A stretch of 20,789 nucleotides of DNA from Lama guanicoe. Its lineage: Eukaryota. The notes beneath the pieces are model-generated. The model was not told the DNA's origin and searched no databases. It was given only the letters and a program-made list of their open reading frames with translations. The stretch lies in contig MU053884.1 of the NCBI GenBank assembly GCA_013239625.1, positions 186,001 to 206,789 on the forward strand, read 5' to 3'. The position numbers and the translations under genes were made by a program. Positions 1 through 20,789 of this stretch are shown here, one piece after another. Within the stretch, counting starts at the first letter, position 1. Every line of letters starts with the position of its first letter.

Positions 1-290
1 GTCCTCTCAAGTTGTTCTTCTTTTTCAAGTACGTTTTGGTTACTGAGACACTCGAATTCCCATATGAATTGTAGCAGCATCTAGTCAGTTTCTGCAGAGG
101 AGCCCACTGGGATTGTGATCGAGACCACATTGAACATACAGATAGCTCTGGGGATCATTTGCATTCCAAGAGCACTGTCTTCTGATCCAGGAATGTGCGT
201 GGTGTGTCTGTCCAGGTATTTAGGTCTTCTTTAATTTTTTTTTCAACAATGCTTTGAGTCTACAGAGTAGTATTTTACTTTATATATCTT
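1..290 (-). mobile_element. Old L1 (L1M-type) fragment, antisense ORF2 region
   Basis: Degenerate match to the familiar antisense L1 string (ccatatgaattgtag...gtcagtttctgca...ctgggattgtgat...cattgaa...tatttaggtcttctttaatt). Boundaries approximate. Confidence 0.7.
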
Positions 291-2700
291 TTTTTTGCCT
301 TTATACTGAGGACAAGTGTGCAAGGTACCTGTATCAGAAGTATATTTGAGCCCCACCTCTTGCTGCCACCATGGTCGCTGCACTCTTGTTTCGCCCACTG
401 TACAATCTTGCACAGTATAGACCTCAGTAACTCTCTCTTCAATGAATGATTATATGATTGTTGGATGATGCTTGAGAGTCCTTGTGATGATTTTTTTCCC
501 ATCCTTTCCCCAATTCTTAACTATGCCCTTTCTCTTCCTTTCCTCCAGTCTTGGTTTCAGCCTACCTGTGGCATTGATTTTTCTTGTCTGTAGACACTTC
601 CTTTCAGTGGTTCATGATAATGTTACATGTGGGTTGTGGAAACTTGCTAGATGTCAAGAAAGAGCAAATCGATTGCATGCTAGTATTTTTAGAGTATGTT
701 ATTCGTTTATCAATTGAAATTAAATCAGGCTTACACCCTGAGCCATCCTGTGAGCCCTTTTCACCTTCCTACAGGTGATACTGCTCTGATTGCTGCATAT
801 GCACTTTCCCAGCCTTGGTTTTGGAGTTGAGTATGTCACCATCAGTGGAGCCCTCTCGTTAAAAGATGAAGAGAACATTTGCTCCTTCACTCTGTTTGGG
901 GACTTGGATGAGGTGAGGTACCAGATAAAGAATGGAGCCCCAACTCATTCTGACCCCAGCTTTTTCCATTCTTTCTCCAGGGTAAAAGAGTACAATACAA
1001 CAATATAAAGATTGATTGTGAGCTAATGAGATAGACAAGACAACCGATCATTTATTAAATATCCTTTCATGCCAGAAACAAATGTATTATACACACAAAA
1101 AGCACATAAAGCATGGTAGTACTATGGTTACAATTGTGGGCCCGAGTTCGAGTCCTGCTCTGGAGTGACCAGTCCTGTGAGATAGAGAACTGGTAGGTCG
1201 GCTTAGCCTCTCCTGGACTTGTTTGCTGTCCTGCAGAGCTTGCTTGCTTGCGTCCCCCTCGTAGAGATGCTGTGGGGTGTAAATAATGCGCGTGAGCAGC
1301 CTGAGCACAGCTGCTCGTTCCTCGTAAGTGCAGGATAGCATAGCTTTTGCAGTGACAGCTTTATGACCGCCCAATGTAGATTCTCTGTGCTCCAAAGGGA
1401 TGCCTTGTGGTTTGGAGATGGGATTCTCACTTCTGTAAATACCCAAGGATTGTGTCATTGCACCCTGCTGATTTGAATCTATTCTTTTGAAAGTACATAT
1501 TGTAGATATATTTTTCAAGCATGCATGCATCTTTTTACTTTATTATTGATACTTGTACACTCTCATGTCTTGGTGTGACTTTTCATGGAATCCAGGAAAC
1601 AGTCCTAAGCTACCTGCCTCTTCACACTTCTCCGTGGTGGTTTTCTTCGCTGACTAGAAGAGGGTTTTGCATAGAAAATTTTCTTTGTTCCCCTTTTTTG
1701 GAGTCTCCCTGTCTGTCTGCCCATCTCTTACCTGTCCATCTGTCCATTTATCTACCCACTCATTCTTCTGACTTGTTCTATGAAGCATTTCAGGCAGCTT
1801 TCAGAAGAACAGATACCAAATAAACAGGTGATTAAATGGAGCCAAGTTTAGACAGTGAGGCTAGGAGGCAAGCCTGTGTGAGGGTTGCAGGCGTGAGACA
1901 CACGTGTCTGCCCTGTGACTTATAAATTCGACAGCAAGTGTATGCTTGAGGTTCCTAGCAGACACAGGGAAACAGGATTTGTGGGAGATGCTCACTGACT
2001 GTGAAATAAATAAGTGGTTTAGGAGAAGCCCAGCCTTTCCAGGTACTAAGGCTTTGAAGAATATTTTGAGTGTCTTCCAAAATCAGAGTATTTCACCTTT
2101 TCTTTTGTCACAGTTCTATGTATAGTTGGTTACATTCTATACCTGGAAATTTCTCCAAAACTGCTTCCCACATGAGTCCCAAGGCTCGGGAATGGAGTGG
2201 TACTGCTCATTGACGGGTGTTGGCCTGAAACAGAGAATGACAGCCTCAAAGGAGCCTGGGATTTGTTAGTTATGTTTTGTCAGTGCTGTAGATTTCAGAA
2301 AATGCTTTCACATTTTTCTCCATCTGAGGTGGCACCGTGCTGTCTTACCAGCATCAGGAGCTCAGGGACACGTGATGGTGGGGTCTGACTGCACTGCCAT
2401 CAAGACAGCTAAGGTAGTCACTGCAGGCGTGTTGCTTTTACATAGTGCATTTCATGTTCTTTAATAGAAGGTTTCAACAGGGATTTAATTGAGTTAATTA
2501 ACATTTAATAAATATGATGCTTTGTTGAAAAGACAGTTATAGGCATATTATAAGCTGTGAAGACTTTAAAACGATTACATTACTGAAATTTCAGTAGGGA
2601 AGTTATGCAGTTTATCGTATTTATGCATCTCTTTTAAAGTAACAAAGAAACAGGACAGAAAAAGCAGAGGGTGGTTTCTGTTCTTCCTCTCGGCTTGCAG

Positions 2701-2822
2701 GTGCCCTCACCTCCAGTGGCATCCATCCAGACACCAGCACTGACACTGGCCGTGCTCAGAACTGCCTCAGCCCTGAAGACACAACTGACAAATAGAAGGG
2801 GGCCATGCCTTGTTACAGCACG
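2701..2822 (+). pseudogene. TRAPPC9: Degenerate TRAPPC9 exon (equivalent to human exon 6)
   Basis: Follows acceptor ttctgttcttcctctcggcttgcag (ends 2700). Codons from 2703 read (G)[38 protein letters not shown](T), versus TRAPPC9 [41 protein letters not shown]; about 27/41 identical by hand. Tyr is replaced by TAG at 2793-2795. The only nearby GT is at 2822-2823, 1 nt earlier than the expected boundary. Confidence 0.92.
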
Positions 2823-3469
2823 TGCTCTCACTTTGTGGGTCCTTGTGTAACTGCGTGGCGTTATTGAGAATCGCCCTTTCTACATTGTGTGACGCTGCTG
2901 CCATCTCTCCTAGTTATTTGTTTCTGTAAATACTCGTGTATTTTCTCCAATTCATGGTACTAGACATCTAAAAATGTTTTTTTAGATGAAAAATAATGTG
3001 TATTTAATATAATAATTCTGAAAAAAGGGGCAAAAGAAGCTCTCCTGGTCCCACTACTCAGAGATAATAATTAAGTTTAACATCTATTTTCTGTTCTTTT
3101 CGTCAGTGTGTATAAACTCTGTCATGAAAACCAGTGAGCACTCTTTGACTATTTACTGTGTGGAGACCTCCATTTTCCATTCAGCTTATTACAAGAACTT
3201 CTACAATATTCTATCTCCCCTGACATGATTTTAATGACCAGTATAGCATTCTGTCTTGTGGAGGCATCGTCCATTTTGCTTCAGACTTAAATAAACTTTT
3301 AAATTCCAAGTATACTTAACTGAAATACTGAAAAGAGAACAGCGGTGGTACCAAAAGGCCCCTACCTCCCTTCCCCTTATTTCCTGAGAGTAAATGCTGT
3401 TGAAAATGTGGTGTATATATTTCATGACTTTTATGCCTATGACATATATATATACAAATACATACATAC

Positions 3470-4620
3470 ACTATATAAGAACTCTGTGTATGTGTGTGTA
3501 TATATGCTTAATTGAAAAATAAGGCCATTCTATATGTTTTCTGGAGCTCAATTTATTCACTCAGGGGTATTTCATAGACATCCTCCCACTCCAGACTCAC
3601 CCAGTTATTTCAGATAGAGTGGAGGGTTCTCCTGGTGTGCGGGTGTGGTCTCTTGTGCAAGGACAACTTTGGTGAAAGAGTGCTGTGAACAAGGCCCTGG
3701 ACCATGCTTAAACGCTGGCCCCCTCAGAGCCCACAGCTCACCGTGATTTACCGCATCATTTTCTTGATGGTGGACACTTAGGTTTTCTCCATTTTCCACT
3801 TTCAGAAAGGATGTTTGACTGGCATCCTTCTTTTACAAACATTCCTGTGATGTTGTATGAGTATTCCTTTAGTTAAGGCTTCTGGAAATTTAGTCCCTGG
3901 ATGTGACATTTACATTCACCACAGGCTACTTTCAAGTGACTCAAGAAATTCCTTCTCCAGTGGGGAGTGAAAAGATGTAGAATGACTTATGTAACCAATT
4001 CTCTATCGCTGGATATGATTTCACTTCATCTTTTCTTCCCACCATTGTAAACAGTGCTGTGTAAATGCCCTGAGGAGTACATCTTTTAGAAATGATTTTT
4101 TTTCTAAACGAAACTATTCCTAGAAGTGGAGTTGAGTCTGTGTGTACGTACGTTTTTTAGAGCTTACATATCCATTGACATGTCGTCTTCCAAAAAGTTT
4201 GCTCATAGTTTGTTCTCTCACAGATGGACACTAGCTAGAATATCTTTTAAAAATATTTGCCAATATGATGAGCAGAAGTTCTTTTTCATTGTTTTAGTTT
4301 GCATTTGATGACCAGTGAGGTATTGACCATTTTTCACTCATTATCCTTCTGACTTTTTAAAAGTGAATGATCCCTTTTGTCCTTTGCACACATTTAAGTG
4401 AGGGAGCTTCTTGTTGCTTTGTGACAGCTCTTTTTATGTTATGAACATTAACTCCTTGTCTTCATGAACATGTATCACAGAGCTTTTCCTTGTCATTTCT
4501 TGCCTTTCATTTTGTTAAGTAGGTTTATTTTTGTTGTGGCCCAAAATATTCCTAAGATAGTAAATGTCTTCATTTTGGGTTTTATCTTTTGTATTATTCT
4601 TAGAAATACTTTCTTATAAT
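3470..4620 (-). mobile_element. Several highly degraded L1 (L1ME-like) 3' fragments
   Basis: Antisense L1 motifs: gatggtggacacttaggttttctccatttt (3766-), attgtaaacagtgctgtgtaaat, ttcctagaagtgga, tcattgttttagtttgcattt, tttgtcctttgcacacattt. Boundaries approximate. Confidence 0.6.
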
Positions 4621-4649
4621 GGTACAAATCTCTTCTACAGGTTTTTTTA

Positions 4650-4740
4650 AATCTCTAAGGTGGAGATGATAATAGTACTTGTTATAGTGAGGAGAAGTTG
4701 AATTAATATGAGCAAAGAATTGTATTTGCTGTTATTAGTA
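4650..4740 (+). mobile_element. MIR 3' fragment
   Basis: ctctaaggtggagatgataatagtactt...gtgagga...gctgttatta resembles the MIR core and tail. Confidence 0.5.
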
Positions 4741-4749
4741 GTTACTAAT

Positions 4750-5530
4750 ATTTACATCATTATCTGTAATTCTTCTTGTGGTCATTATGACAGGAATAGA
4801 ATTTGTTCTTTCCAGGTGATTCTCTGATTTGTCCAAGGACAATTATTGAATTCATGCTTTGTTCTTTGATTTCAAATCCCACCTGTACAAAATACTTATG
4901 TACACAAGAGTCTCTTTTTGTGCTCATTATTTATTATTCTCAATCTTACTTTCTTATTCCAGCTCTATATCTTACATATTGTAAAAATTTATTTAATATT
5001 TGACAGTGTGTTTTTTTGAGGTTTTATTTTATTTTATTTTATTTAATATTTTTTATTTATTTATAATCATTTTACAATGTTGTGTCAAATTCCAGTGTTC
5101 AGCACAATTTTTCAGTCATTCATGGACATATGACAGTGAGTTTTTTTTGATTCTTTTCTTCCATCCCAAATTTTCTTGGCTAGTATTATGACTTTATTAT
5201 TCCCGAAGAATTCTAAAATACTTTGTTCAAGTAAAAAAGAAAAACAGATAAGTGTTTTCATGGGATTTTTTAGTAAGTTTTGAATTATCTTTAGGAGAAC
5301 TTGCATCTTTACAAAACTGCTTTCCTCCATGTAATATGTTGATATCTCTACATTCACACCTTTCACTTTACCCCTAAACACAGTCCTGTAGTTTCTCCAT
5401 GTAGAAAATGGACATTAATTTTGAGTTTATTCCAGATTATTGTTGAAGTTTTTGTTAATTTTGTATATGAGAATTTTTTGCTATTTTTTTTAACTGTTTA
5501 AACTGACACCTAGGAAGGCAGATTTGGTTT
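4750..5530 (-). mobile_element. Degraded old L1 fragment, interrupted by the young L1 at 5020-5130
   Basis: Antisense L1-like motifs: gtccaaggacaattattgaa, ttaggagaacttgcatctttacaaaactg, gtagtttctccatgtaga, gagtttattcc. Boundaries approximate. Confidence 0.55.
5020..5130 (-). mobile_element. Young, severely 5'-truncated L1 3' end (camelid-type) with target-site duplication
   Basis: T-rich (ATTTT)n tail followed by ttataatcattttacaatgttgtgtcaaattccagtgttcagcacaatttttcagtcattcatggacata. Flanked by direct repeats tgacagtgtgtttttttga (5001-5019) and tgacagtgagttttttttga (5131-5150). Confidence 0.85.
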
Positions 5531-5994
5531 GTAAATTCTCACTTTGTTAAATTGTCATTTAAAATTGTAAGTATTAATTACTTGTTCCAGAATCCTTTCC
5601 TTTCTGTTTTTAAAAATTTGTTTCCAAGTTTCTTAAAATGGTTATAGCTAAGTAGTATAGGTGGGGAGAGAGATGGAGAGAGGTAGTGTTGCTCATGTAC
5701 AAACTGTGAGCAGTTTCATGGCTGCCTTTAGGATGGAGATGCTGCAGAAGAGCCCAGGTTAGACCAGGGATGGCTTTGTATGCACTTGAAAGCCAGCTTT
5801 CCTACCTTTATGGTGAAGCCTGGTGGGCATTGCATCTAGATGATCAAGGTCCGAAGAAGGTCATTGGCTGCACAGAGCACTGTGTCTGTGAGAACTGAAG
5901 CCCACTGCCATGGGAAATGCTTGGTACCATGAACACTGCAGGGGAGCTGGGGATCCTGTGTGTTAAGGGCATTCCAGTCCTGGCAGTGGGAAGA

Positions 5995-6200
5995 TCAGAT
6001 TCTGCATTCAGGTCTGAATTTGATTTCATCCTCTCTTGTTTACTGGTCCTCTGACTTTTGTCTAGTTATATACCCTCTTTGAACTCCTGTTTTCTTGTCT
6101 CTCAAAACAGGAGAATTATGGCCTACTGCAAGAGTGTTTGATCAGGATATATGATTTGTGTGTATAAGATGCTACGTACAGTCAGAAGCTCAGTGAGAAA
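5995..6200 (+). mobile_element. MIR SINE (degraded)
   Basis: ggtctgaatttg...tgacttttgtctagttatataccctctttgaactcctgttttcttgtctctcaaaacagga follows the MIR core. Confidence 0.6.
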
Positions 6201-6504
6201 TGGGCTGTCGCCTGTTCTGCAACTCAGTGCTTGACAAGACATGGGGGAAAGCCAGTCCCTAATTTGTGTGTGATGCAAGTAGGAACAAAATTAACGTCTT
6301 GCCTATCCCTAACAGTAAATTTACTCCTTTGCTTCATTTACTTCTTTCCTCCTTTCTTTCCCGTTTCCCCTCCTCCAACAAAAGTGCCTGAGATTCTCTC
6401 AGAACACTAGATTCAAATTACTTTAAAGGATTGCTCATCCTCATGAAATGACAGTAACATAAAAAAATCAGTACACATCCCAGAATTCATTGTATTTCAT
6501 TTAC

Positions 6505-6528
6505 CCACACACACGCGCACACACACAC
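6505..6528. repeat. Interrupted (CA)n microsatellite
   Basis: cacacacacgcgcacacacacaca seen directly. Confidence 0.8.
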
Positions 6529-7239
6529 AATCAGCCTATATCCCACTTGCTGAGGGAGAAGGGCCACTTTTTCTGAGTTTTCATTCACTGAGCGTGAGAA
6601 CAAAGTCTCTTACGCAGACTTTCACCTGGCTTCATGCGTGGTGTGTTTAATTGGATTTCTGCATTGTGGCCATATTTCTATTCTCCTAATAGAAGAGAGG
6701 AAGTGGAGACATAGATATTCTTCTGAGATATTGGTGTCATCATATTTGAGTTAGAAAGGACTTAAGACAGCATAGAGTCATAAGTTTTTATGGGTGAGAA
6801 TCCATGATAGTGTAACTTGGACAAGAACCCGGGTCTTCTGCCATCGTGTCCACGCGGGTGGATGGGCAACTGTGTGGGGGTGGCAGGGATCCTTCTTTCT
6901 TGAGTTCCAGGGTCTTGCTAGTTTTCATTGCTCAGCTGCCTTTAGTTTATGTCCATGTGGCCTCTCATGGGAAGGTCACTCTGTCCTGATAGACTGAGTT
7001 TCTAATCAGCAAAAAGGTCTGGACCCACTCATATTTCCCAGAGTTTTCTGATGACCTGCTAACACTTTATATAAATGAGACCTAAGAAACTGCTGGATAA
7101 AAAATCCTCATTGTTGTTGTTTGCCCTCGAGATCCATAGGAATGGGGCGCTGTCTCAGGCTAAGGCTAGATCTGAACAAAGATAGGGTGATAGGCTGTGC
7201 TGCTGGACCCTCCACAGTCGAATGGGATTTCCACTTTAG

Positions 7240-7400
7240 TTTTTAGAATCAGGCAGACGAGTTCAAATTTTGCCTTTACCAGTTATCAGCTTTGTGACCT
7301 TGGGGAAGAAACTGTACTTTTTTGTGTCGAATTTTCTTTCTCTGTAAATAAGTTCAGTATTTATATTAAGGTTTTTGTTTTAGAATTGAATGAGCTAATT
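7240..7400 (+). mobile_element. MIR SINE
   Basis: agaatcaggcagacgagttcaaattttgcctttaccagttatcagctttgtgaccttgggga...tctgtaaa...gaattgaatgagctaat matches the MIR consensus layout. Confidence 0.75.
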
Positions 7401-7525
7401 CCCTCATTTATACCTAAAATACTGATAGAGTGGTTCTATGCTGGTGCCTTGGTTGTTGATTACTAAGGGACTCAGCAGTGAGAATGGGGATGGTGGACTC
7501 CTGGATCATAGAGTTTATATTCCAG
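7401..7525 (-). mobile_element. L2 3' end fragment
   Basis: catttat...aaatactgatagag...ctatgctggtgcc...agggactcagcagtga...catagagtttatattccag resembles the antisense L2 tail. Confidence 0.55.
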
Positions 7526-7914
7526 GATATGCTTGTAGAAGACTGGATGTGCAGTGGATTTTTAGTAAATATCCATTCCTTTCCTAATCTGCATTGATTG
7601 TATATATATCTTTATACTAATATGTGAACAATTTTTACTGCAATTTAAATCTCATTGTAGTATTTAAAATAAGTGGCTATAACAAAAATACGTGAAATTA
7701 AATTATTTGATATTTTATTTTCTTTTCAATAAGCAAAACAAAATAAAACAGAAAAGAAAAAAGTTTTGAAGGAGTAGAAATAATTTTATTTCCGTGGAAT
7801 CAATTCCCTATGATAGGTTTTTGGGTTGTGTTGTTAAACAGCATATAAAATTGATAGGTTGTGACATATTGGAAATGAGGAAACAGTGGAGACATACTAC
7901 CTCCAATGCAGTCA

Positions 7915-8450
7915 TTTTACCAAGTCCAAACTCGTTCTGCTTGCTGCATGTTAGGCCAATAAATTGGGAAATGAGGTGTTGGAGCAAAGAATAGTGACTT
8001 TATTTGAAAAGTTTGCAGACCCAGAGGATGGCATATTGATATCTTGGTGAACCTTATTCCCCAATCAGAATTCAGTCTCCTTTTATACTAAAAAGGGGCG
8101 GGGGTGTGGTTGGTTGTTGCAAACTTCTTGCTGTATGAATTGTTTGTCCTTGGAATCCTTTGTTTTTGCAGCTGTCCATGTGGGTCAAATCATGGTGCCC
8201 CAGTAAAATCTCCAAAAAAAGCAAAGTTTATTCTCATTTTGCAACTTGCCATCTCTATATAAGTGCAGAAGAGTTAACATCCTTAAAGATCAGAGCCCGG
8301 AGATTAGGCTTTCCTGGATATTTCAAGCTAAAGACAACTTTCTTTTACAAAAGGTGCAGAGCTAGCAAGTTTGAGCCTAGAAAACAAACACAGGTTTACA
8401 GCCAAAGGAACACATCTAGCATGGAGTCAAATTTGTTCTTTTCTTTTATA
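7915..8450 (-). mobile_element. Solo ERV1-class LTR (cetartiodactyl type), ~535 nt
   Basis: Begins ttttaccaagtccaaactcgttctgcttgctgca and ends atggagtcaaatttgttcttttcttttata (decayed TG..CA termini). Minus-strand TATAAAA at ~8081-8087, AATAAA at ~7999-8004 and a GC box at 8096-8102. Resembles a common artiodactyl LTR family from memory. No clean TSD. Confidence 0.8.
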
Positions 8451-9609
8451 ATTTTTTTCCACCTCATAAATAGTTTTAGTGAGGATCATGAACAATTTTT
8501 TTTTATTTTTGCTTCATAATGACGGATAAGTAGGCCAAGTACATTTTTGTGAGCAGGGATGCTGTGCGTGCCTTGGGGTCACAGCAAACTCTTGTTGGTG
8601 GTAGTCGACCCTGCAACATGTCTGATGCCCCATGAATGTTGGTGAGGTTCCCGCTAACCAGGGGCTCTCTTTAGGAACCAGCATATTGGCATTGACCTCT
8701 GGAGAACACATTTTCAGCTGCAGGAAATTTTTTCAGATACTGTGATTGAAAAATCACTCCAGCTGGGGATAATTTGGGAATAAAGGAAGAGGTAAAGGAC
8801 TTGGAGTATAGTCGAAGAGAAGGACAGAAGATCAGGGAGCCTGGGGTCTTGGCAGCGGGGCCTCGGGAGAGAGAGGAGCAGAGGTGGGGAGGGGCCTCGA
8901 TTTGGAACCAGCCCCTGCACCTGTCCCCTTGCCCAAGCCACACAGCTTTTAATTGGCCCAGAACACTCTCCTGTCTAGATGTCACCCTGGGCAGAACATT
9001 GAGAATCGAAGGTAAGGGGTGGGCAGCACTCACATAGGGGGTCACTGAGGACTTTGTTCAAGTCCACAGTGCCTTTTCTGGTCATGTGTCTTCAGTTGTC
9101 ATTTATCTCAGGATCTGAGAAGCAGGAGCAAGGAACTCAGGAAGAGATCCAGGAAGACATCTGACTGTGTTAAGAGACGACAGTCATAGCAACACGGGGA
9201 GCGAAGACACTTGCAGCAAAGTAAACTAACTTCACAACTGTTGCATTAGGCTGCAGGTGTGAGAGAGTCTTAGCCTGTCTCAGAGTACAGGGCACAAGCG
9301 GAAAGGAATGGTAAAATTTCCACTGACATTTCAAATTTTGTTAGCCTGCTACTGTTAATTGTATCACTTGAATATATGCAGGTGTATTTCTGTGAGCATT
9401 TATAGGTTCACACAACCCCACCAGCCCCTCTTGCCCCCATAGAGGATGGGCTTTCTCAAGCACAGTGCCCCTCCTGATTGGGTGGGCCACGCTGTGGGTC
9501 CTTGCCTGGGGCCGGGTAGCTGCAGTGCACTGAGTCCCCAAGACGCAGCCTTCGAGACACGAGAGGAACATGTCTGCTCTTGACTGAGGACCTCCTTTTC
9601 CCTCTGCAG

Positions 9610-9733
9610 TGTAAGAATGCCGGTGACTCAGTTTGAAGCATGCTTCGAAGCTGTCCGTGTCCTTGCCATCCAGAAGCGGAGGCTGGAAGCTTCCAAATTT
9701 CTCCAGAATGCGGTTTACATTCACCTTCGACAG
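9610..9733 (+). pseudogene. TRAPPC9: Degenerate TRAPPC9 exon (equivalent to human exon 7)
   Basis: Strong acceptor ctccttttccctctgcag (ends 9609) and consensus donor CAG|GTGAGT (9733/9734). Reads CKNAG-[2-nt deletion][37 protein letters not shown], versus TRAPPC9 [42 protein letters not shown]; about 32/42 identical. Length is 124 nt rather than the 126 nt needed for 42 codons. Confidence 0.95.
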
Positions 9734-10599
9734 GTGAGTGTATGTCCTTTTACAAATGGAGGAATTACTGCAGTTTTCCTGGAACTTACTCACCACTAGT
9801 CCATCTGACTTTCCTGTATGAGGATTCAGTATGGCATGCTAAGAATTCTGGAGTCAGATCTTGAAACCTTGATGAAGAGGATTATTTAATTTATTTCTTT
9901 ATATGATAGTATTTTACTTTCAAAATTCAGAGTTTTCGGTTCTTTGAGGAATTTTTTCGGGGGTTGGAGAAACAACATTTCTCTTACCATCTTTGTTAAC
10001 TGTTGCTATATGCCTCTCCCCTGTCTTCTGTCTCTAGTGAGTCGGTTCCATTTGTGACCCTGTCTGGGTTGTTCATGTTATAAAACATAAAGTCTTTAAA
10101 ATACAGTCCCTTTTACTCCGAAGATATTCTACAAATACTACTTAAATCTGGGTGTGGTTTTAAGAAGACAGAATCATTAGAACATGTACTTGCAGGTTGC
10201 TATTGCAAAATCCCCAAATCAATAGTCTAGCTCAACATCTAAAATCTTTCTAATCTACCTTGGATTTGTATGGATAAGTGAAGCAATTTGCTAAGAACTC
10301 AAGACCAGGTTTAGAATACAGGCTGGTGTAGCTCAGGAGGTCCTCCCAAACTGATGCTCTGCCAGGGGTGGGGCTGAGGGGAAATGGCGGGTCCTACCCT
10401 CCCTGAGCTGACAGTTTCTTGGCAAACACTTTCACAAGGTGAAGAACTTGGAGTTTCTTCTAAGAACAGTTGGTTTGAAAAGAGTCTTAAAAGCACAGGA
10501 ATGACACAATCCCATTTGTCTGAAATAGGGGAGAGCAGCTGGGAGGCCACTTGGGAGACTCATGAGTCCTGGTGGGCAGTGTTGGTGGCTTCCAACTGA

Positions 10600-12290: not shown

Positions 12291-12992
12291 TGACAAGCTC
12301 GTGTGATCAGAAGGCTTAGTTTAGCTCTGATCCTCTTTGTCCAGTCCTGTCGGTGCTGACATTCAAGGTTCTGCAGTGGCTGCTCTTAATCTGAGGTGGG
12401 AGGGCGTAGAGGGACATTATAGCACCCGAGGTCAGGAAGGGGTTGCTTTAAAAGCAGACATGTAGCCATCTGCAGCTGCAGATCTGCAGGCAGTTTGGTT
12501 GATGGTCCTGGAGAGGACTTTGGAGGACTTAGTATCATCTTAGGACTAGTTTTCCCTTGCGGACCGGATTTGTCTTTGCAGATTAATGTTGAAGATTTGG
12601 GCTTCTGGCAAAGCTGTTTTCAGAGATGGGTATATACATAACATATCGTATAAAATAAAATGCTTTTATTTAATGTGTGGGACTCTGCAAGTGTTGGGAA
12701 CTGCTTTATTGGCCTGGTCTCCACGGAAGACACTAGGGGTCAGCAGAGCATGCAGGAGGGCAGGCAGCCCTTAAGCTGCTGCGGGGGTTTCTCCCCAGCA
12801 TGGCACTTTGTTGAGTTGACTCGTCTCTGAGTTTGGTTGCCAAGTGAGCAGACAGCAAGGTAATGAGTTCCAGTGGGATTGTATAATGACAGGAAGAAAG
12901 AGGAACCCGTAGTTTTTCTGGACTAGAACACGCTTTTGGTTCCTGATCCAGTGTGTTCTGTTACAGAATTGATGAGTTTTGTCTATTCTGGG

Positions 12993-13463
12993 ACTTGATT
13001 GAAATAAGCATTCAGCCTAAAATTTAAGAATTATGTCTTATTTGGCGAGAGGACTCGAGCCGGGATGACAGCCTCTCAGATCACTCTGAGGGACTGATCC
13101 TAAGAGGTAGGGGAGGAGCTAGGATATATAGGAGCTTTACAACAGAGACCAGGCTGTTGGAACAATAAATGATTGCTTGTTATCTAAAGAAACCAGGTAT
13201 CTCAAGTTCAAGAATTTAGTGCATTTCTATGTATGGGAGGAAGCAAACATATGGATCATTGGATTCATTCCTTTGGCAAGCACCTAGCTATCTAGGGCCA
13301 GTATACTGTCCTTTCTTATTTTGAGTCTACTCAGAAGGCACCACTGTGAGTGGCTGAGAGGCTAGGCTGCAGGCATGTCCTCGCTGGGGGGAGGCAGCAG
13401 CCGCTGATGTCTTGGTTTCAGCATTCTTTGTTTACTAACATGGTTGCAGTATTTTCATTCACA
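12993..13463 (-). mobile_element. 3' LTR of the provirus
   Basis: Aligns with 19118-19398 (about 38 substitutions and 3 gaps over ~280 nt by hand). On the minus strand it starts TGTGAATGAAAA (13463) and has a TATATA box at ~13125-13131. The outer terminal dinucleotide is mutated. Confidence 0.88.
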
Positions 13464-13483
13464 TTGAATTATTTTGATTAACA

Positions 13484-13497
13484 TTGCTCCCCCTTGG
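13484..13497 (-). other. Polypurine tract (PPT)
   Basis: Minus strand reads AAGGGGGAG-CAA directly before a TG LTR-like terminus. Confidence 0.75.
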
Positions 13498-13783
13498 TCC
13501 TTAATTTGACCAATATTTTGAGAGACATTTCATGCCCAATTTTGTCCCATGGTGCTAGGATGTCTCATTCCTAGTTCAGGTGAAGAATCGTCTCAGCTGC
13601 CATTCAAGGTGTTAGGTTATTTATCAGGACCTGTTGATACAAAAAGTTCTCTGGATCGCCTGTCTTACTAGTTTATTATGATCCAGGAAATGTTTACCCT
13701 TTGTTGCTCATTCCCATGTCAAGAATCACAATATTAAAATTATTTTATGCAGGGTTATAAATTTTATATATTTCTTCAAGATG

Positions 13784-13918
13784 TTAAGCCATCATCAATT
13801 TTGTAGGCCTAGTTACACAATGGGAAATATAACAGACAACAATTTTATAAAATAGACAGGATATAAATAATACAGCTAGTAACGTTAATGAAGCCACGAG
13901 TAAGTATTTAATAGTCAA
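13784..13918 (-). pseudogene. Probable env transmembrane-anchor/cytoplasmic-tail remnant
   Basis: Minus-strand frame LTIKYLLVASLTLLAVLFISCLFYKIVVCYISHCVTRPTKLMMA* is a hydrophobic span lying just upstream of the PPT, where the env TM ends. There is no upstream ATG in this frame before the preceding stop. Confidence 0.5.
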
Positions 13919-14394
13919 GAAGTTAAATTTTTGGGTTAAAATTTTGCTTGTGTTTCTGATTGAGTTTGAATGATCCTATGAGGAATTTCATATTTATGGT
14001 CAGAGTCAGAGCAGGTATTTATTGGCCAGGTGAGGTCTTCCACCTTGTAAGATCAACAGTGGCCTAAACAGAACTATAATTTCTTTTTAGAATAATGTTT
14101 CTGAGGGCTATCTAGTTAGAGACTTGGAGTAGGGAAACCCACCAAGGTAACACAGAAGTACTAGACATAGGTAATTTACCATAAACTTAACAATTGGTGT
14201 AGTTCATAATCAAAGGTAGGAGAAATTATCAAAGTAACTGGTATACAGGCCTGGTCCGGTGTCTTGGGTCAGCTGTCTACCTCAGATATCATCTTCTTCT
14301 CATCCTGGCCTGGTAGCTTTTTTTCCATTTGGGCGCTGTTTTAAGGTGAGCAGTGCTCTGTAGGCCAGTGCACTGCAGGGGCTGTGTCTGATAG

Positions 14395-14551
14395 GAAATG
14401 AATCTGAAAGTCCGTTTCCTTCAGCTTTGGTGTGTATGGTCTAGTAAAGAGTACTTGATAAAGGGTCCTTCCATTCAGGTTTAAGACAATTCTTTAAGTC
14501 ATGCCTGTTCCAGTATGTATAATCCCCTGGCTGCAGGTCATGGGGCATTGG
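14395..14551 (-). pseudogene. pol integrase C-terminal domain remnant (GPY/F region)
   Basis: Minus strand reads PMPHDLQPGDYTYWNRHDLKNCLKPEWKDP-[+1]-YQVLFTRPYTPKLKETDFQIH, matching the gamma-like integrase motif HxLQPGDxVxxK...LxPxWKGPYxVLLT...WIH, with one frameshift. Confidence 0.85.
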
Positions 14552-15551
14552 AACTTTACCGAAGGATAGATTACTGAGCTTCAGAAACAAACCTAATGTA
14601 TCCTTTTCATAATTCAATTATACTTTACAGCAATGTGACATAACAGCAAGGAATGATCTGGGAATTGTCTTAGTAAATATAGACCTCAATTAACCAAACT
14701 AGAATTTAATACCCACTAAAATATAATCTTTTTTCTCTGTAAAGTTACCCTCATTTTTCTCAAATATAGCCAAATCAAGATTAATTTGTTTACAAGTTTA
14801 GTCTGATTATTTGATCATATAGGCTTTTTTAAATTGGCTGTGTTGGAACTTTTAATAAGAAGTCTCAGGGTAGAATGTAAATAAGGTTTGTTAAGCCCAG
14901 GAAAGCCACATATATTGCTTGTCTTGGATTTCTGCCTTACAGATTTAGGTAAATTCTTTTCTCTTTAAAATCCTTCAAATACCTTGAGATTCCTATGTCT
15001 GTTAGGAGATGATCTTCCTCATTTGTCTGATAGAGCCACTGGGGACCTAAGGGTTTTTAGTCTCTTGAGGGATCAGATAGAGAGAAAAGTTAACTGTTCC
15101 AAGTCTGCTTAAATAGGTATAATTTATCAAATTGCTGTGAATCATAACTAGCTTAAGAGGAAGAGTTTCTTTATGTCTGGGAAACAGGTTAAAACCCAGT
15201 GTATTTCTAACAAAATTAAAAATTATAACCATATTCATCAGTTTACTCAGTCCCACGTAACTAATTCTTTTAATCAGAGTTTTCATTAGACCTTTAAAAT
15301 TTCCTACTGAGTTTAGTTCAGTGCTATAGTTTGAAATTTATTAGAAATCAGTAAATCTCCTTGAATAGAAAGCATTTTGCAAAATCATCATGAGAAAACA
15401 ATTAACTGTCTAAATGACAAAAGAAACCATTACACTTGATAAAGAAACCTGGTCACTATAACCAGAAATATGACTGGTAACATTTCAGATATACCAGAAT
15501 TTTAGGGAGTCCATATAATTTCTAGAATATCTATATTAATAATATAATATT

Positions 15552-15617
15552 NNNNNNNNNNNNNNNNNNNNNNNNNNNNNNNNNNNNNNNNNNNNNNNNN
15601 NNNNNNNNNNNNNNNNN
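15552..15617. other. Assembly gap (66 N)
   Basis: Run of N. Confidence 1.
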
Positions 15618-17505
15618 TCAATGGTAAAGGCAGAACAGATCAGTTAAGTGGTATAAGATGTTTTACAATTTGTTACTGAAAGTGTATAAACATTTTAAGA
15701 AAATTTTGTCCTCTTAACAGAGAGAAAACCAAATCTAGTCTTGTACCAGCTTACTTCTAAGATTCATTTACATTGCCCAATTTGATTCTAAACTTAGCCA
15801 TTTCCGACCACGTACAAAACTCTTTCCTCAGGATTCCTCTTCCACAAGCCTTCCACAGCTTTCTATACTCATATTAGTGTGTCCCTTATTTTCTCTTCCA
15901 TTCAGACGTAACCAGCTTCAGGAGAAAGTCACTATTTTTCATTAACAAAATATAATTCCATTCTTATATCTTCCTTTACATATTTATCTTACTTTCCTAG
16001 GATACTGATATCATTCCCTTAATAATACAGACTATTTCAGGGTGGCACCAACTATTTATTGATATTTCTAAACACCTTTAGTTTCTCTGTAAGAGGAATT
16101 TAAATGTTAAGTAATTCATATTTCAGTCTTATTTTATCTGAAAATGGCATAACTATTTAATAAAATCCTATCATTTAACTTAATTTAGCACAGCTCTAGA
16201 ATTTAAAGATACAAAACTTTTAGAGATTGTCTTAAGCATACATTTTAAAAATATATTTTAAAAATATACCCAAAGCTCTCATTTCATTTGCATTTAAATT
16301 ACTTAAAATTTTACCACACAACATTACTATATTTTTCTCTTGACAAATCTGCAACACTTATAACGTGATCTTATTTGACTTTCATTAAACCTAGGTATAG
16401 TAAAGGTATTATACTTAATATTGATGGCTTTAAAGATGTCTCTATTAATTAGAACATACTTAAACTAAACAATAACACATATTATCTTAATATTGAATAT
16501 TTTCCATTTCACGTGATGCTGAAGTAAATTTGGTCAGTTTCTATTTTAAAAATGCTTAATTTGTAAGCTGTTATTTTTTACGTCAATTTAGCAGAGCTCT
16601 TTGACTTTGATTTTTTTTTTTAGCTGTAGAAATATCTCACATCTATAATGTGTATGCAGGCTTATAAACAGATAAAAGCTAGAGATCTCATAGCTTCACT
16701 TTAAATCTTACTTATAAGTTAGGTATAATAATAGTTGGAGTAAGCTGAATTTGTTTGCTCAAATCACTAAGGCTTAGTATTTATGAAACAGACATTTTAG
16801 ATTTATTGACAAATTCTGAAGGATCCGTCAGAGTTATGAGTTCTAAAATGCCAAAATTTCTTTGCCTTTAAGTTTATCTCGTTGAGCAAATTAGGCTCAG
16901 TCCTAGGTCACTCTTTGCTGTATTTAATTTCTGATCTGTAAGACAAAGACAGACGCTTCCAGTTCCCCAGAGAACTACTCTGTCACCCAGGTCAAAATGT
17001 ATCTCCTAATTTGCCTTTTTGTATCAATAAGAAGAGCTGTAAACAAAGAATTCCATGTTTCAAAACTTTAAGGTTTACTTTATCTTGTCTTTGAAAGCCT
17101 TCATAAGGCATTTAGTAAGGTCTCTTTTCCTTGAGTTATAAGTAAATCCCAGGTAAGACCTCTTATTGTATTTTTTTATTAGCCACTGAATATTAGTTTT
17201 TAGTTTTACATTATATTGGACGTCTCATGTAACTCTCTTGGTTTCCTTCACTTTGTTCAATTAATATATTCTGAGGGACAGATATGTGCCCAGCCTTATA
17301 ATACCAAGAAGGGGAAGAGTCTTTCCTTTGAAACATATATATCCCACAAGATAACTAAGCAAAAGGTTTATAACAAGCCCTTTTAAATATACCAATTTTA
17401 CAAATATTTATCTCAATTTTATTAAATCTTTTACCTTTAATTTTTATATTCATTAGGTTTAATGAATAATTCTTATTTCTAGAAGGAGTGCCAGAAGATT
17501 TTTTT

Positions 17506-18650
17506 GGGGGGGGCATTGTATCTAATTTTATAGAAAAGTCCCTGGGATCCCCAAGTTTGAGCCAAAGAGCTTAGGCCCTTCTCAATTTTTAATTTGATTA
17601 ATACTTCTGTTGTCCCAATCATTGATCAAGCATTTCAGTCTATATATATATATGTCTATATATATATATATGTGTATATATATATATATATATATTGATG
17701 GCCATATGATGGATCCTAAATTTGGAAAAACTTTTAAATTGGTGAAAGTTGAAAGAGCTCTCATTATAAACAGCTGTTTTATTCGTACCTATTAAAATAA
17801 AGTTTAAAGGTAGAAAAGTATATCTAATGGGTAACCTAATTACTTAGTTAAAAAATGCTTTGAAAAGATATATAGTGATTTTAAACCAATAAGATGAAGA
17901 GGCTTTTCCACATGAGAGTGGGGGTCTGGCCTAAATAAACTTTAAAACTTTACTCTCCAAAAGCTAAAGGCCTTTGTGGTCCAGGCTGATGCATCAAAGG
18001 TTAAGATGGCAAAATGCCCGAAAATTGGTTCAATCAAATGATTATTGAGAATCCCAATTTATTTGCATGTCCACCATATGTACACAGTACTTGTACCTTT
18101 TGTATGGCAGAGTACAATGTTTCCTTAAAAAAAAAAGGAAACACATATAAACATACATACACAAACATAAAATTCCCAGAGAAAGATAAAACGTTTACAT
18201 TTCAAGGACACAGGAAGAGAAATACAAGTTCCCCCTAAAGGGGATTTTATTTTTATATGTTCAGAATTCCAAAAAATGTTTTTATCAGGCCTGGTTAGTT
18301 ACTTTCAGAGTGAGTTTTTTTTTTTTTAATTCCCAACTAACGTAAATTTTGTACATAAATAAAGCTGGCTGTGGTATTAGTTGAAGGCTGGCAATCTGTC
18401 ATTTCTTTTGGTTTGATTTTTTTTATTTTTTTTGGGTTTTTTTTTTGGAAGTTCTAGTCCACATTGTAAGGTCGGGTTCTCAGAATAAAATTGCTAGTAA
18501 GATTTCCCGCAGGGAAAACACTATAGCATGAAGTCTTTGCCTCTACCACCACTGCAAGTTTCTCTGTCACCCGAGAAAGCTGTTACCAACCAGGAGGAGG
18601 GTCCCACTTTTGGAGTTGAATGTTTCCTCATAAGAGTTTTTCTTTTATTC
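17506..18650 (+). repeat. Copy 1 of a ~1.14 kb direct repeat (ERV interior)
   Basis: Matches 19660-20789. Three ORF-track entries recur identically at offset 2154. Confidence 0.97.
17641..17695. repeat. Interrupted (TA)n microsatellite (recurs at 19795-19849)
   Basis: Seen directly; it produces the IYIYIY ORFs. Confidence 0.95.
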
Positions 18651-18982
18651 CGAAAAATTCAATGGAGGTAACCAAATTGAGGAAAACATTAGACCAGTCT
18701 CTTATCTAACCACTCAGTCCTGAACCCAGTGTCTTTCAAATTGGATCCATTAAGGACATCTCCACTTGGTGAGTATTATCCTGGTATCTTTCCACCAGCC
18801 CCACCTCAGAAGTTTCCTCAAGGTATTTCCTATTACCTTTCACCCAGGCCCCACCCAGTATGTCTCTACTTGGTGGGTAATTCCCCCCAGTCTCATTCAA
18901 CTGGAGGGCCAGGTACCTGGATACACTGCCAAGTAAAACTCAGGATCCTCAACCAATATGTCAGATCCGAGAACCAGGAGAG

Positions 18983-18990
18983 ACTCACCC
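18983..18990 (-). promoter_or_regulatory. Putative retroviral major splice donor in the leader
   Basis: Minus strand GG|GTGAGT about 105 nt downstream of the PBS, the usual position for this site. Confidence 0.55.
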
Positions 18991-19095
18991 AAATTCATCT
19001 GGACTCCCCAAGGAGGTGGATGGGCACAAAGGGCCACTGCTGGTACCAAGGCTCTGGTTACTCGGAGAGTTCAGGTGGAGAGAAGTCTGCTCTGG

Positions 19096-19113
19096 GTCCC
19101 TTCATGGTGTCCA
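19096..19113 (-). other. Primer-binding site, tRNA-Arg type
   Basis: Minus strand TGGACACCATGAAGGGAC lies 4 nt after the LTR end (...GTCAACA). It matches 15/18 of TGGCGACCACGAAGGGAC, the complement of the tRNA-Arg(TCG) 3' end as recalled. Confidence 0.8.
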
Positions 19114-19117
19114 AAAC

Positions 19118-19398
19118 TGTTGACTGAAATACATGTGCAGCTTAAAAGTTAAGAGTTATGATTTATTTGGCAGGAGGACTCGAGCCAGGATGACAGCCCC
19201 TCAGATTTCTCTGAGGGACTGCTCCAAAGATGTTGAGTAGGAGCTAGGATATATAGGAGCTTTACAACAAAGATCAGGTTGTTGGAGCAATAAAATATTG
19301 TTTTGTTATCTAAAGAAAGCCAGGTATCTCAAGTTCAAGAATTTAGTGCTTTTCTATATATGGGAGAAAGCAAACATTTGGACTCACTGAATTCATTC
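19118..19398 (-). mobile_element. 5' LTR of the provirus (partial; the U3 part falls in the gap)
   Basis: Intact terminus tgttgactgaaa (minus strand ...TCAACA), minus-strand AATAAA at ~19162-19167 and TATATA at ~19250-19255. Homologous to 12993-13270. Confidence 0.9.
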
Positions 19399-19659: not shown

Positions 19660-20789
19660 GGGGGGGGCATTGTATCTAATTTTATAGAAAAGTCCCTGGG
19701 ATCCCCAAGTTTGAGCCAAAGAGCTTAGGCCCTTCTCAATTTTTAATTTGATTAATACTTCTGTTGTCCCAATCATTGATCAAGCATTTCAGTCTATATA
19801 TATATATGTCTATATATATATATATGTGTATATATATATATATATATATTGATGGCCATATGATGGATCCTAAATTTGGAAAAACTTTTAAATTGGTGAA
19901 AGTTGAAAGAGCTCTCATTATAAACAGCTGTTTTATTCGTACCTATTAAAATAAAGTTTAAAGGTAGAAAAGTATATCTAATGGGTAACCTAATTACTTA
20001 GTTAAAAAATGCTTTGAAAAGATATATAGTGATTTTAAACCAATAAGATGAAGAGGCTTTTCCACATGAGAGTGGGGGTCTGGCCTAAATAAACTTTAAA
20101 ACTTTACTCTCCAAAAGCTAAAGGCCTTTGTGGTCCAGGCTGATGCATCAAAGGTTAAGATGGCAAAATGCCCGAAAATTGGTTCAATCAAATGATTATT
20201 GAGAATCCCAATTTATTTGCATGTCCACCATATGTACACAGTACTTGTACCTTTTGTATGGCAGAGTACAATGTTTCCTTAAAAAAAAAAGGAAACACAT
20301 ATAAACATACATACACAAACATAAAATTCCCAGAGAAAGATAAAACGTTTACATTTCAAGGACACAGGAAGAGAAATACAAGTTCCCCCTAAAGGGGATT
20401 TTATTTTTATATGTTCAGAATTCCAAAAAATGTTTTTATCAGGCCTGGTTAGTTACTTTCAGAGTGAGTTTTTTTTTTTTCCCAATTAAAATAAATTTTG
20501 TACAGATATAAACCTGGCTGTGGTATTAGTTGGAGGCTGGCAATCTGTCATTTCTTTTTGTTTTCATTTTTTGGGTTTTTTTTTTGGAAGTTCTAGTACA
20601 CATTGTAAGGTCGGGTTCTCAGAATAAAATTGCTAGTAAGATTTCCCACAGGGAAAACACTATAGCATGAAGTCTTTGCCTCTACCACCACTGCAAGTTT
20701 CTCTGTCACCCGAGAAAGCTGTTACCAACCAGGAGGAGGGTCCCACTTTTGGAGTTGAATGTTTCCTCATAAGAGTTTTTCTTTTATTC
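19660..20789 (+). repeat. Copy 2 of the ERV-interior direct repeat (runs to the window end)
   Basis: Apparently identical to 17506-~18315, divergent over ~20475-20650, then identical again to the window end. Confidence 0.97.

What the first reader, a model, noticed from the sequence alone, without database searches (positions are those of the whole stretch)
2701..9733. Intron-containing, decayed copy of the normally single-copy gene TRAPPC9
Seen: two exons with splice acceptors, separated by 6.8 kb of intron containing ancient MIR/L2/L1, only ~66% and ~76% identical at protein level to TRAPPC9, with a stop codon and indels. Established: TRAPPC9 (TRAPPII subunit Trs120/NIBP) is highly conserved in mammals and loss of function causes neurodevelopmental disease, so the orthologue should be nearly invariant here. 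Inference: this is a DNA-level duplicate, possibly one member of an amplified lineage-specific TRAPPC9-like family. I recall multiple 'TRAPPC9-like' models in camelid annotations but cannot verify that. A true gene loss would be even more remarkable.
Basis: partly seen in the sequence, partly recalled or inferred. Interest (0 to 1): 0.72.

Follow-up and report, generated by a model that had tools for sequence, protein, structure and literature searches.

The report
Dead TRAPPC9 copy in camelid amplicon
This stretch is one broken, intron-containing copy of part of the trafficking gene TRAPPC9, from a family of many such copies in camels and alpacas that share the same old defects, while an intact TRAPPC9 still exists in camels, so it is a duplicated pseudogene and not a gene loss.

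Summary
Observation confirmed. Two TRAPPC9 exons (2701-2821, 9610-9733; 67% and 76% identical to the camel orthologue) flank a 6,788-nt GT-AG intron, with a TAG at 2793. The lesions are shared, not assembly errors. All 46 paralogue models found are from Camelus or Vicugna; 17 carry the shifted exon-B start and none the ancestral one; 10 of the 36 that cover the codon end at the stop position. An intact Camelus ferus orthologue exists, so this is not gene loss. Thousands of 82-100%-alike contigs from two DNA runs cover the whole stretch laid (2400-9900), intron included. The two indels (-1, -2) cancel across the splice junction. Residues at the stop position (W, Q, L, Y) are all one step from TAG. 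An RNA run shows the family spliced through cryptic exons. A GC-ward bias in these two exons did not replicate in other exons. Verdict: an unprocessed, 3'-truncated pseudogene from a camelid-wide amplified block. Four paper searches found no description, but NCBI/UniRef models label copies TRAPPC9-like and this scan already reported the family on other DNA of this genome. Two dromedary GWAS may have taken a copy for the real gene.

The parts
2701..2821 (+). Decayed TRAPPC9 exon A, 121 nt, 1 nt short at its 3' end
   Evidence: 37 of 46 paralogue models hit this region
2793..2795 (+). In-frame TAG at a conserved Tyr; shared family lesion
   Evidence: 10 of 36 covering models end at this codon, others have W 23, Q 1, L 1, Y 1
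2822..9609 (+). 6,788-nt GT-AG intron, shared with other family copies
   Evidence: all 30 bins of 2400-9900 covered in both DNA runs
9610..9733 (+). Decayed TRAPPC9 exon B, 124 nt, 2-nt deletion near +13 that cancels the -1 of exon A
   Evidence: shifted start in 17 of 46 models, ancestral start in 0, in-frame A-B junction peptide in 7
177..215 (+). Cryptic upstream exon (5' end not defined) whose donor at 216 is spliced to exon A in family RNA
   Evidence: RNA run X16: 3 contigs with a loose end before 2698 identical to window 183-212; model P0134
1545..1673 (+). Upstream intron segment used as an exon in alpaca paralogue models
   Evidence: 7 of 46 models, 79-95% identity
2087..2434 (+). 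Two further segments used as exons in paralogue models (2087-2194, 2282-2434)
   Evidence: 5 and 11 of 46 models
2926..2927 (+). Alternative donor GT 104 nt past exon A, apparently spliced to a cryptic acceptor at 9110-9111
   Evidence: X16: 4 contigs with a loose end behind 2926 matching 9113-9131 for 19 letters; the joint was not among the 15 rows shown of 69 in table 5
5001..5150 (-). About 110-nt poly(A)-type retro-insertion with a target-site duplication of about 19 bp (L1 3' tail; name recalled); absent from some other copies
   Evidence: TSD; joints and empty-site letters tables 5 and 5c
7860..8460 (.). LTR-like intron segment (label and limits from recall and by eye); 7955-8065 is used as an exon in camel models
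   Evidence: P0003 and P0004 match 7955-8065 at 78%

Best explanation
The window is one copy of an unprocessed, 3'-truncated TRAPPC9 pseudogene inside a camelid-wide amplified block. (1) Shown: the copy was made at DNA level, since intron and splice sites are kept. (2) Inferred: one founder copy of the 5' part of TRAPPC9, ending after the exon that follows exon B, arose in a stem camelid and took about 0.10 changes per first/second codon site, plus the -1, the -2 and the TAG. (3) Shown in part: the founder was then multiplied, and the copies were inherited by both camels and alpaca. The route, segmental duplication and tandem amplification in repeat-rich regions, is inferred. (4) Shown for the family, not for this copy: members are transcribed and spliced through the old splice sites and through cryptic intronic exons. 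This copy has the stop and a weakened donor, so at most it gives a non-coding RNA. The real TRAPPC9 is intact elsewhere.
For: Splice sites and intron. Camelid-only paralogues: 29 V. pacos, 12 C. bactrianus, 4 C. dromedarius, 1 C. ferus. Shared lesions. 13 of 39 exon-A positions depart from the orthologue family-wide. No model covers TRAPPC9 beyond the exon after B (read by eye). 21,860 and 12,496 contigs laid from two DNA runs of two organisms, most under 99% alike; one contig over 2778-3074 has depth 810 against 22-30 for the shallowest listed in that run. Models use many incompatible frames and exon sets. P0014 and P0138 no longer score in Pfam, while P0045 does. Intact orthologue P0045.
Against: No genome was held, so copy number, synteny and an intact orthologue in this same assembly were not shown; P0045 is a rough model from C. 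ferus. The -1 and -2 cancel and the next exon carries an in-frame one-codon loss in the models, which sits awkwardly with purely neutral decay.
Confidence: 0.86

Rival explanations
1. The family is, or was, a functional truncated gene. The founder kept its frame under selection, and an alpaca subfamily reopened the stop and was amplified as a coding or regulatory-RNA family, with this copy a dead member.
For: Compensating -1/-2 within about 14 nt of the spliced sequence. In-frame A-B junction in 7 of 46 models and W at the stop position in 23 of 36. P0138 is open over three exons. Spliced RNA contigs.
Against: Protein models are ascertained for open frames. The W models are mostly from one species and many from one 78.5-Mb contig, so they may reflect one event. 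The models disagree in frame and exon use. W, Q, L and Y are each one base from TAG, whereas W, Q and L are two from a Tyr codon, which points to a stop in the founder. About 0.13 changes per first/second codon site is of the order of neutral divergence nearby.
Confidence: 0.09
2. The stop and indels are assembly errors in the real TRAPPC9.
For: The window has two N gaps and a probable false duplication near its end. No run holds more than 0.43 of the sampled words.
Against: The same lesions occur in models from four species. 23 amino-acid differences from the orthologue cannot be sequencing error.
Confidence: 0.01
3. True loss of TRAPPC9 in this lineage; the window is the decayed sole orthologue.
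For: An intact copy was not shown in this very assembly.
Against: The C. ferus orthologue is intact over exons A-C and beyond, and the decayed sequence is multicopy.
Confidence: 0.01
4. A Y-linked ampliconic copy, as for testis gene families.
For: Three RNA holders are labelled reproductive system.
Against: Paralogue models lie on many contigs of 26-137 Mb. The location of this particular copy is unknown.
Confidence: 0.03

Closest known systems
TRAPPC9 / NIBP / Trs120 (Pfam PF08626), the parent gene
   Same: Two consecutive exons, same order and splice phase, 67% and 76% identical.
   Different: Stop codon, two indels, only the 5' part of the gene in the family, many copies; the true orthologues are nearly invariant here.
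3'-truncated incomplete segmental duplicates of human genes (PMC6169893, passages read)
   Same: Incomplete DNA-level duplication of the 5' part of a gene; truncated or fusion transcripts; novel exons taken from flanking or intronic DNA.
   Different: Far older and more diverged (about 8% from most family copies), higher copy number, and no coding product shown.
Pseudogene-rich repetitive blocks of alpaca chr 11, 17, 36 (NEK10-like, ATF5, FMN2-like, ABHD17A-like; PMC13751797, section 14 read)
   Same: Fragmented multicopy gene pieces in repeat-rich camelid DNA, ascribed to segmental duplication and decay.
   Different: Those blocks are reported absent from camel assemblies, whereas this family is shared by Camelus and Vicugna. 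TRAPPC9 does not occur in that paper's text or its one readable supplement.
Primate core-duplicon gene families (NPIP, TBC1D3; recalled, TBC1D3 seen only in a search listing)
   Same: Transcribed, lineage-specific, dispersed and tandem amplification of a gene-derived block.
   Different: Those keep a coherent, often selected ORF; none is shown here.

Membership tests
TRAPPC9 homologue | Significant similarity to TRAPPC9 exons in order | tested here: met
   E 3e-15 and 2e-17 to P0045; all 118 queries hit the exon A bin and 117 the exon B bin, the remaining hit falling in the adjacent bin
Functional TRAPPC9 orthologue | Open frame and near-invariant sequence | tested here: not met
   TAG 2793; 57 of 80 codons identical versus a median 81 of 82 among orthologues
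Functional TRAPPC9 orthologue | Synteny with KCNK9, CHRAC1, AGO2 | not testable with these tools
   no genome held
Unprocessed (duplicated) pseudogene | Introns and splice sites retained | tested here: met
   GT-AG intron of 6,788 nt; exon B ends match an intact vertebrate locus
Unprocessed (duplicated) pseudogene | Disabling lesion | tested here: met
   in-frame TAG; the two indels cancel and are not disabling together
Unprocessed (duplicated) pseudogene | Intact parent elsewhere | tested here: met
   P0045 in C. ferus; shown for a related camelid, not for the source assembly
Unprocessed (duplicated) pseudogene | Neutral evolution (dN/dS near 1) | not testable with these tools
   no camelid orthologue DNA obtained (one search gave only a distant vertebrate locus)
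Segmental duplication family | Over 1 kb of non-coding DNA shared among copies at about 90% or more | tested here: met
   7.5 kb tiled in 30 of 30 bins; 17,877 of 21,860 contigs at 90% or more in X1; contiguity of single copies not shown
Core-duplicon gene family | Transcribed | tested here: met
   splice-type loose ends in one RNA run; family level only
Core-duplicon gene family | Coherent conserved ORF under selection | tested here: inconclusive
   models differ in frame and exons, but an open three-exon frame exists in alpaca; no selection test possible
Processed pseudogene | Introns removed | tested here: not met
   6,788-nt intron present

The most novel reading that the evidence does not exclude
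The camelid TRAPPC9 5' block is a non-primate core duplicon. Its founder evolved fast while keeping its frame, possibly under GC-biased gene conversion, and later gained a stop. An alpaca subfamily then reopened that codon and was amplified into a new, translated truncated-TRAPPC9 family that could interfere with TRAPPII or NF-kB signalling (functions of TRAPPC9 recalled). The window copy would be a dead sibling.
Probability: 0.08. Interest if true: 0.8.

Novelty: new member of a known kind. Interest (0 to 1): 0.35.

Why it matters
It rules out a surprising gene loss and dates a large amplified block to before the camel-alpaca split through shared lesions, which gives simple markers (stop codon state, -1/-2, intronic insertions) for sorting copies in long-read assemblies. 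It is also a practical hazard. Two dromedary GWAS list TRAPPC9 as a candidate at chr14:30.9-31.4 Mb, one of them beside POFUT2. That is probably a pseudogene copy, and SNPs there may be differences between paralogues; this rests on recalled synteny and on earlier finding e1-7859014, and was not tested here. Dozens of 'protein-coding' models are probably annotation artefacts of this family.

Tried and rejected
Genome-wide copy count and synteny: no genome held. Cluster member look-up: not available, so accessions and chromosomes of the models were not obtained. PDB search with exon B: 0 hits. Pfam on 13 short or paralogue proteins: nothing above cut-off. Rfam: 0 matches. Search for further TRAPPC9 exons in the window: none; the next exon may lie beyond the window end, so this does not show truncation. 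Metagenome scan for camelid DNA: 1 locus from 183 candidate stretches, a distant vertebrate TRAPPC9 with no DNA similarity to the window outside exon B. GC-biased gene conversion: 14 A/T-to-G/C versus 2 reverse changes at 150 scored codon positions, Fisher P 0.028, noticed before testing. Family-shared versus variable changes in exons A+B were 12:1 versus 5:18, P 6e-5. It did not replicate: exon C gave 6:4 versus 8:10, P 0.69, after dropping two rows (one seen in a single model, one a change in the camel orthologue itself), and exon 2 gave 10:15 on 5 models per half against a pig reference. It is kept as a weak lead only. Summed contig depth was not used as copy number or expression level, as the tool warns. 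No fold or complex prediction was run: the window encodes no open product worth folding.
Full report
Observation. The two segments are real TRAPPC9 exons. Exon A runs 2701-2821 after an AG, ends before a GT, and holds an in-frame TAG at 2793-2795; exon B runs 9610-9733 between AG and GTGAGT. Against the Camelus ferus TRAPPC9 model P0045 they are 26/39 and 28/37 identical. As a control, 117 other vertebrate TRAPPC9 proteins match P0045 at 73-82 of these 82 residues, median 81. A tblastn with 118 TRAPPC9 proteins found no other exon in the window. An intact TRAPPC9 locus from an unrelated vertebrate (L001) has exon B at 126 nt with the same ends, and the window lacks 2 nt near +13. Exon A aligns without gaps for 39 codons and leaves 2 nt for the last codon, so it is 1 nt short (inferred from the peptide). 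The MIR/L2 labels were not tested.

The indels cancel. The -1 at the end of exon A and the -2 at the start of exon B are 6.8 kb apart in DNA but about 14 nt apart after splicing, and they sum to -3. Seven of 46 paralogue models carry the resulting in-frame junction peptide. The only break in the spliced A+B frame of this copy is therefore the TAG. The base before the exon A donor is C here, where read-through models imply G in other copies (inference), so this donor is probably weakened.

A camelid family. Three protein searches returned 46 non-orthologous models, all camelid: 29 Vicugna pacos, 12 C. bactrianus, 4 C. dromedarius and 1 C. ferus. The alpaca ones lie on 18 contigs of different length, 8 over 25 Mb; assemblies may be mixed, and isoforms of one locus count separately. 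Seventeen carry the shifted exon-B start and none the ancestral start. Of 36 that cover the stop position, 10 end exactly there (5 Bactrian, 1 dromedary, 4 alpaca), 23 have W (all alpaca), and one each has Q, L or Y. By the genetic code, W, Q, L and Y codons are each one base from TAG, while W, Q and L are two from a Tyr codon, so a stop in the founder with later point changes is the simplest reading. The Y model could instead be an early branch. Thirteen of 39 exon-A positions and 5 of 37 exon-B positions differ from the orthologue family-wide, so most divergence predates the amplification. Models include pieces of exon 2 and the exon after B but nothing further 3' (read by eye). Some splice exon A to a following exon 2 (P0137, P0139, P0142, P0144, P0146), as head-to-tail units would.

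DNA-level sharing. Paralogue models use as exons several stretches that are intron or flank in the window: 175-213, 1545-1673, 2087-2194, 2282-2434, 3544-3780 and 7955-8065. Laying two DNA runs of two organisms on 2400-9900 placed 21,860 and 12,496 contigs, covering 30 of 30 bins. In X1, 3,352 were 99% or more alike, 14,525 were 90-99% and 3,983 were below 90%. One X8 contig over 2778-3074 has depth 810 against 22-30 for the shallowest listed, which suggests tens of near-identical copies collapsed into it (inference; the tool gives no copy number). The window differs at 585 and 600 places from a quarter or more of the laid depth, about 8%, so it is a divergent member. The rows for the TAG and the indels were among those not shown.

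Transcription. In RNA run X16, three contigs stop matching before 2698 and continue with 30 letters identical to window 183-212, which end at a CAG|GT donor at 215/216. Four stop at 2926, a GT, and continue with 19 letters matching 9113-9131, just after an AG. These are splice-type joins through cryptic exons. They show that the family is transcribed and spliced in at least one library. They do not show that this copy is, since contigs were accepted from 82% likeness.

No gene loss. P0045 is identical or nearly so to the mammalian consensus over these exons, continues into later exons and scores in Pfam PF08626, whereas paralogue models P0014 and P0138 do not. Synteny and the source genome's own copy could not be checked.

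Relative dating (inference). Changes at first and second codon positions fall on the pseudogene branch, because the orthologue is unchanged: 18 of 150 scored sites, 0.13 corrected. The two LTR copies downstream are 86% identical over 279 nt, about 0.07 per branch. The window is about 0.08 from the bulk of the family, about 0.04 per branch. The order would be duplication, LTR element insertion, then radiation of copies. Shared lesions put the founder before the camel-alpaca split, given as more than 11 million years in the abstract of PMC13751797.

A lead that did not hold. Fourteen of the 18 changes go from A/T to G/C and 2 the other way, which suggests GC-biased gene conversion in the founder. 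The pattern was seen before it was tested, and it did not repeat in exon C (6:4) or exon 2 (10:15).

Mechanism. Most likely (0.86) the 5' part of TRAPPC9 was duplicated as DNA in a stem camelid, decayed, and was then multiplied with its flanks by segmental duplication and tandem amplification. Members are still transcribed, giving non-coding, variably spliced RNAs that annotation pipelines turn into inconsistent protein models. The main rival (0.09) is a once- or still-functional truncated gene. It rests on the cancelling indels and the open alpaca W subfamily, but these models are selected for open frames.

Literature. Searches for TRAPPC9 with camel (17 papers), with alpaca (0), with pseudogene, duplicat and camelid (0) and with camel and copy number variation (3, none on camelids) found no description of the family. 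The library lacks most subscription papers. PMC10357240 and PMC8027435 (passages) list TRAPPC9 as a GWAS candidate at dromedary chr14:30.9-31.4 Mb, the first beside POFUT2. That both parent genes lie on other chromosomes is recalled; PMC7288448 (passages) only places the HSA21 block on alpaca chr1, and PMC6598621 (passages) does not mention TRAPPC9. PMC13751797 (abstract, passages, section 14, one supplement file; supplementary figures not seen) describes other pseudogene-rich alpaca blocks. PMC6169893 (passages) gives the human class of 3'-truncated duplicates. bioRxiv 10.1101/2025.08.28.672513 (first of two parts read) does not name TRAPPC9 in that part; its supplementary CNV table was not seen and may bear on this. 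PMC12351130 and the papers were seen as listings only.

Earlier scan notes e1-7859014 and e1-7859012 (same genome) and e1-7791955 (another genome) already describe this family. Their copy counts and the promoter claim were not tested here.

Verdict. Interest 0.35; novel case probability 0.08, interest 0.8 if true.

Noticed in passing
window 12984-19398 (minus strand): LTR retroelement: two LTR copies 86% identical over 279 nt (12995-13270 and 19120-19398), a purine tract next to the left LTR and a primer-binding-like site next to the right LTR on the minus strand. The interior is AT-rich, with no Pfam match in the two open frames scanned. ERV1-like class is recalled.
   Followed up: partly
window 17506-18650 and 19660-20789: 1.1-kb direct duplication either side of the 261-N gap: first 819 nt identical, then 11 mismatches and 15 gap bases clustered at 18325-18510. 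Probably a scaffolding artefact joining an allele or sibling copy.
   Followed up: partly
window 5001-5150: Short poly(A)-type insertion with a target-site duplication of about 19 bp; the empty site is seen in other family copies, so it can mark a sub-clade.
   Followed up: yes
protein models P0003, P0004, P0014, P0138 (not in window): Some loci carry a second, differently shifted form of exon B, and P0003/P0004 carry both forms in tandem, so exon B was duplicated within some units.
   Followed up: no
PMC10357240 Table 2: Many associated SNPs lie within 100 kb of chromosome starts or next to ANKRD26/ANKRD20A-like, SUPT20H, TRAPPC9 and POFUT2 labels, a pattern that suggests paralogue artefacts in amplified blocks.
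   Followed up: no
L001:1828-1953 and 3582-3798: A metagenome contig holds two intact vertebrate TRAPPC9 exons, that is, host DNA in a metagenome collection.
   Followed up: partly
P0045 exon C: The C. ferus orthologue has V where 111 of 118 orthologues and all 14 paralogue models have I, so the duplication predates that change, if it is not a model error.
   Followed up: partly
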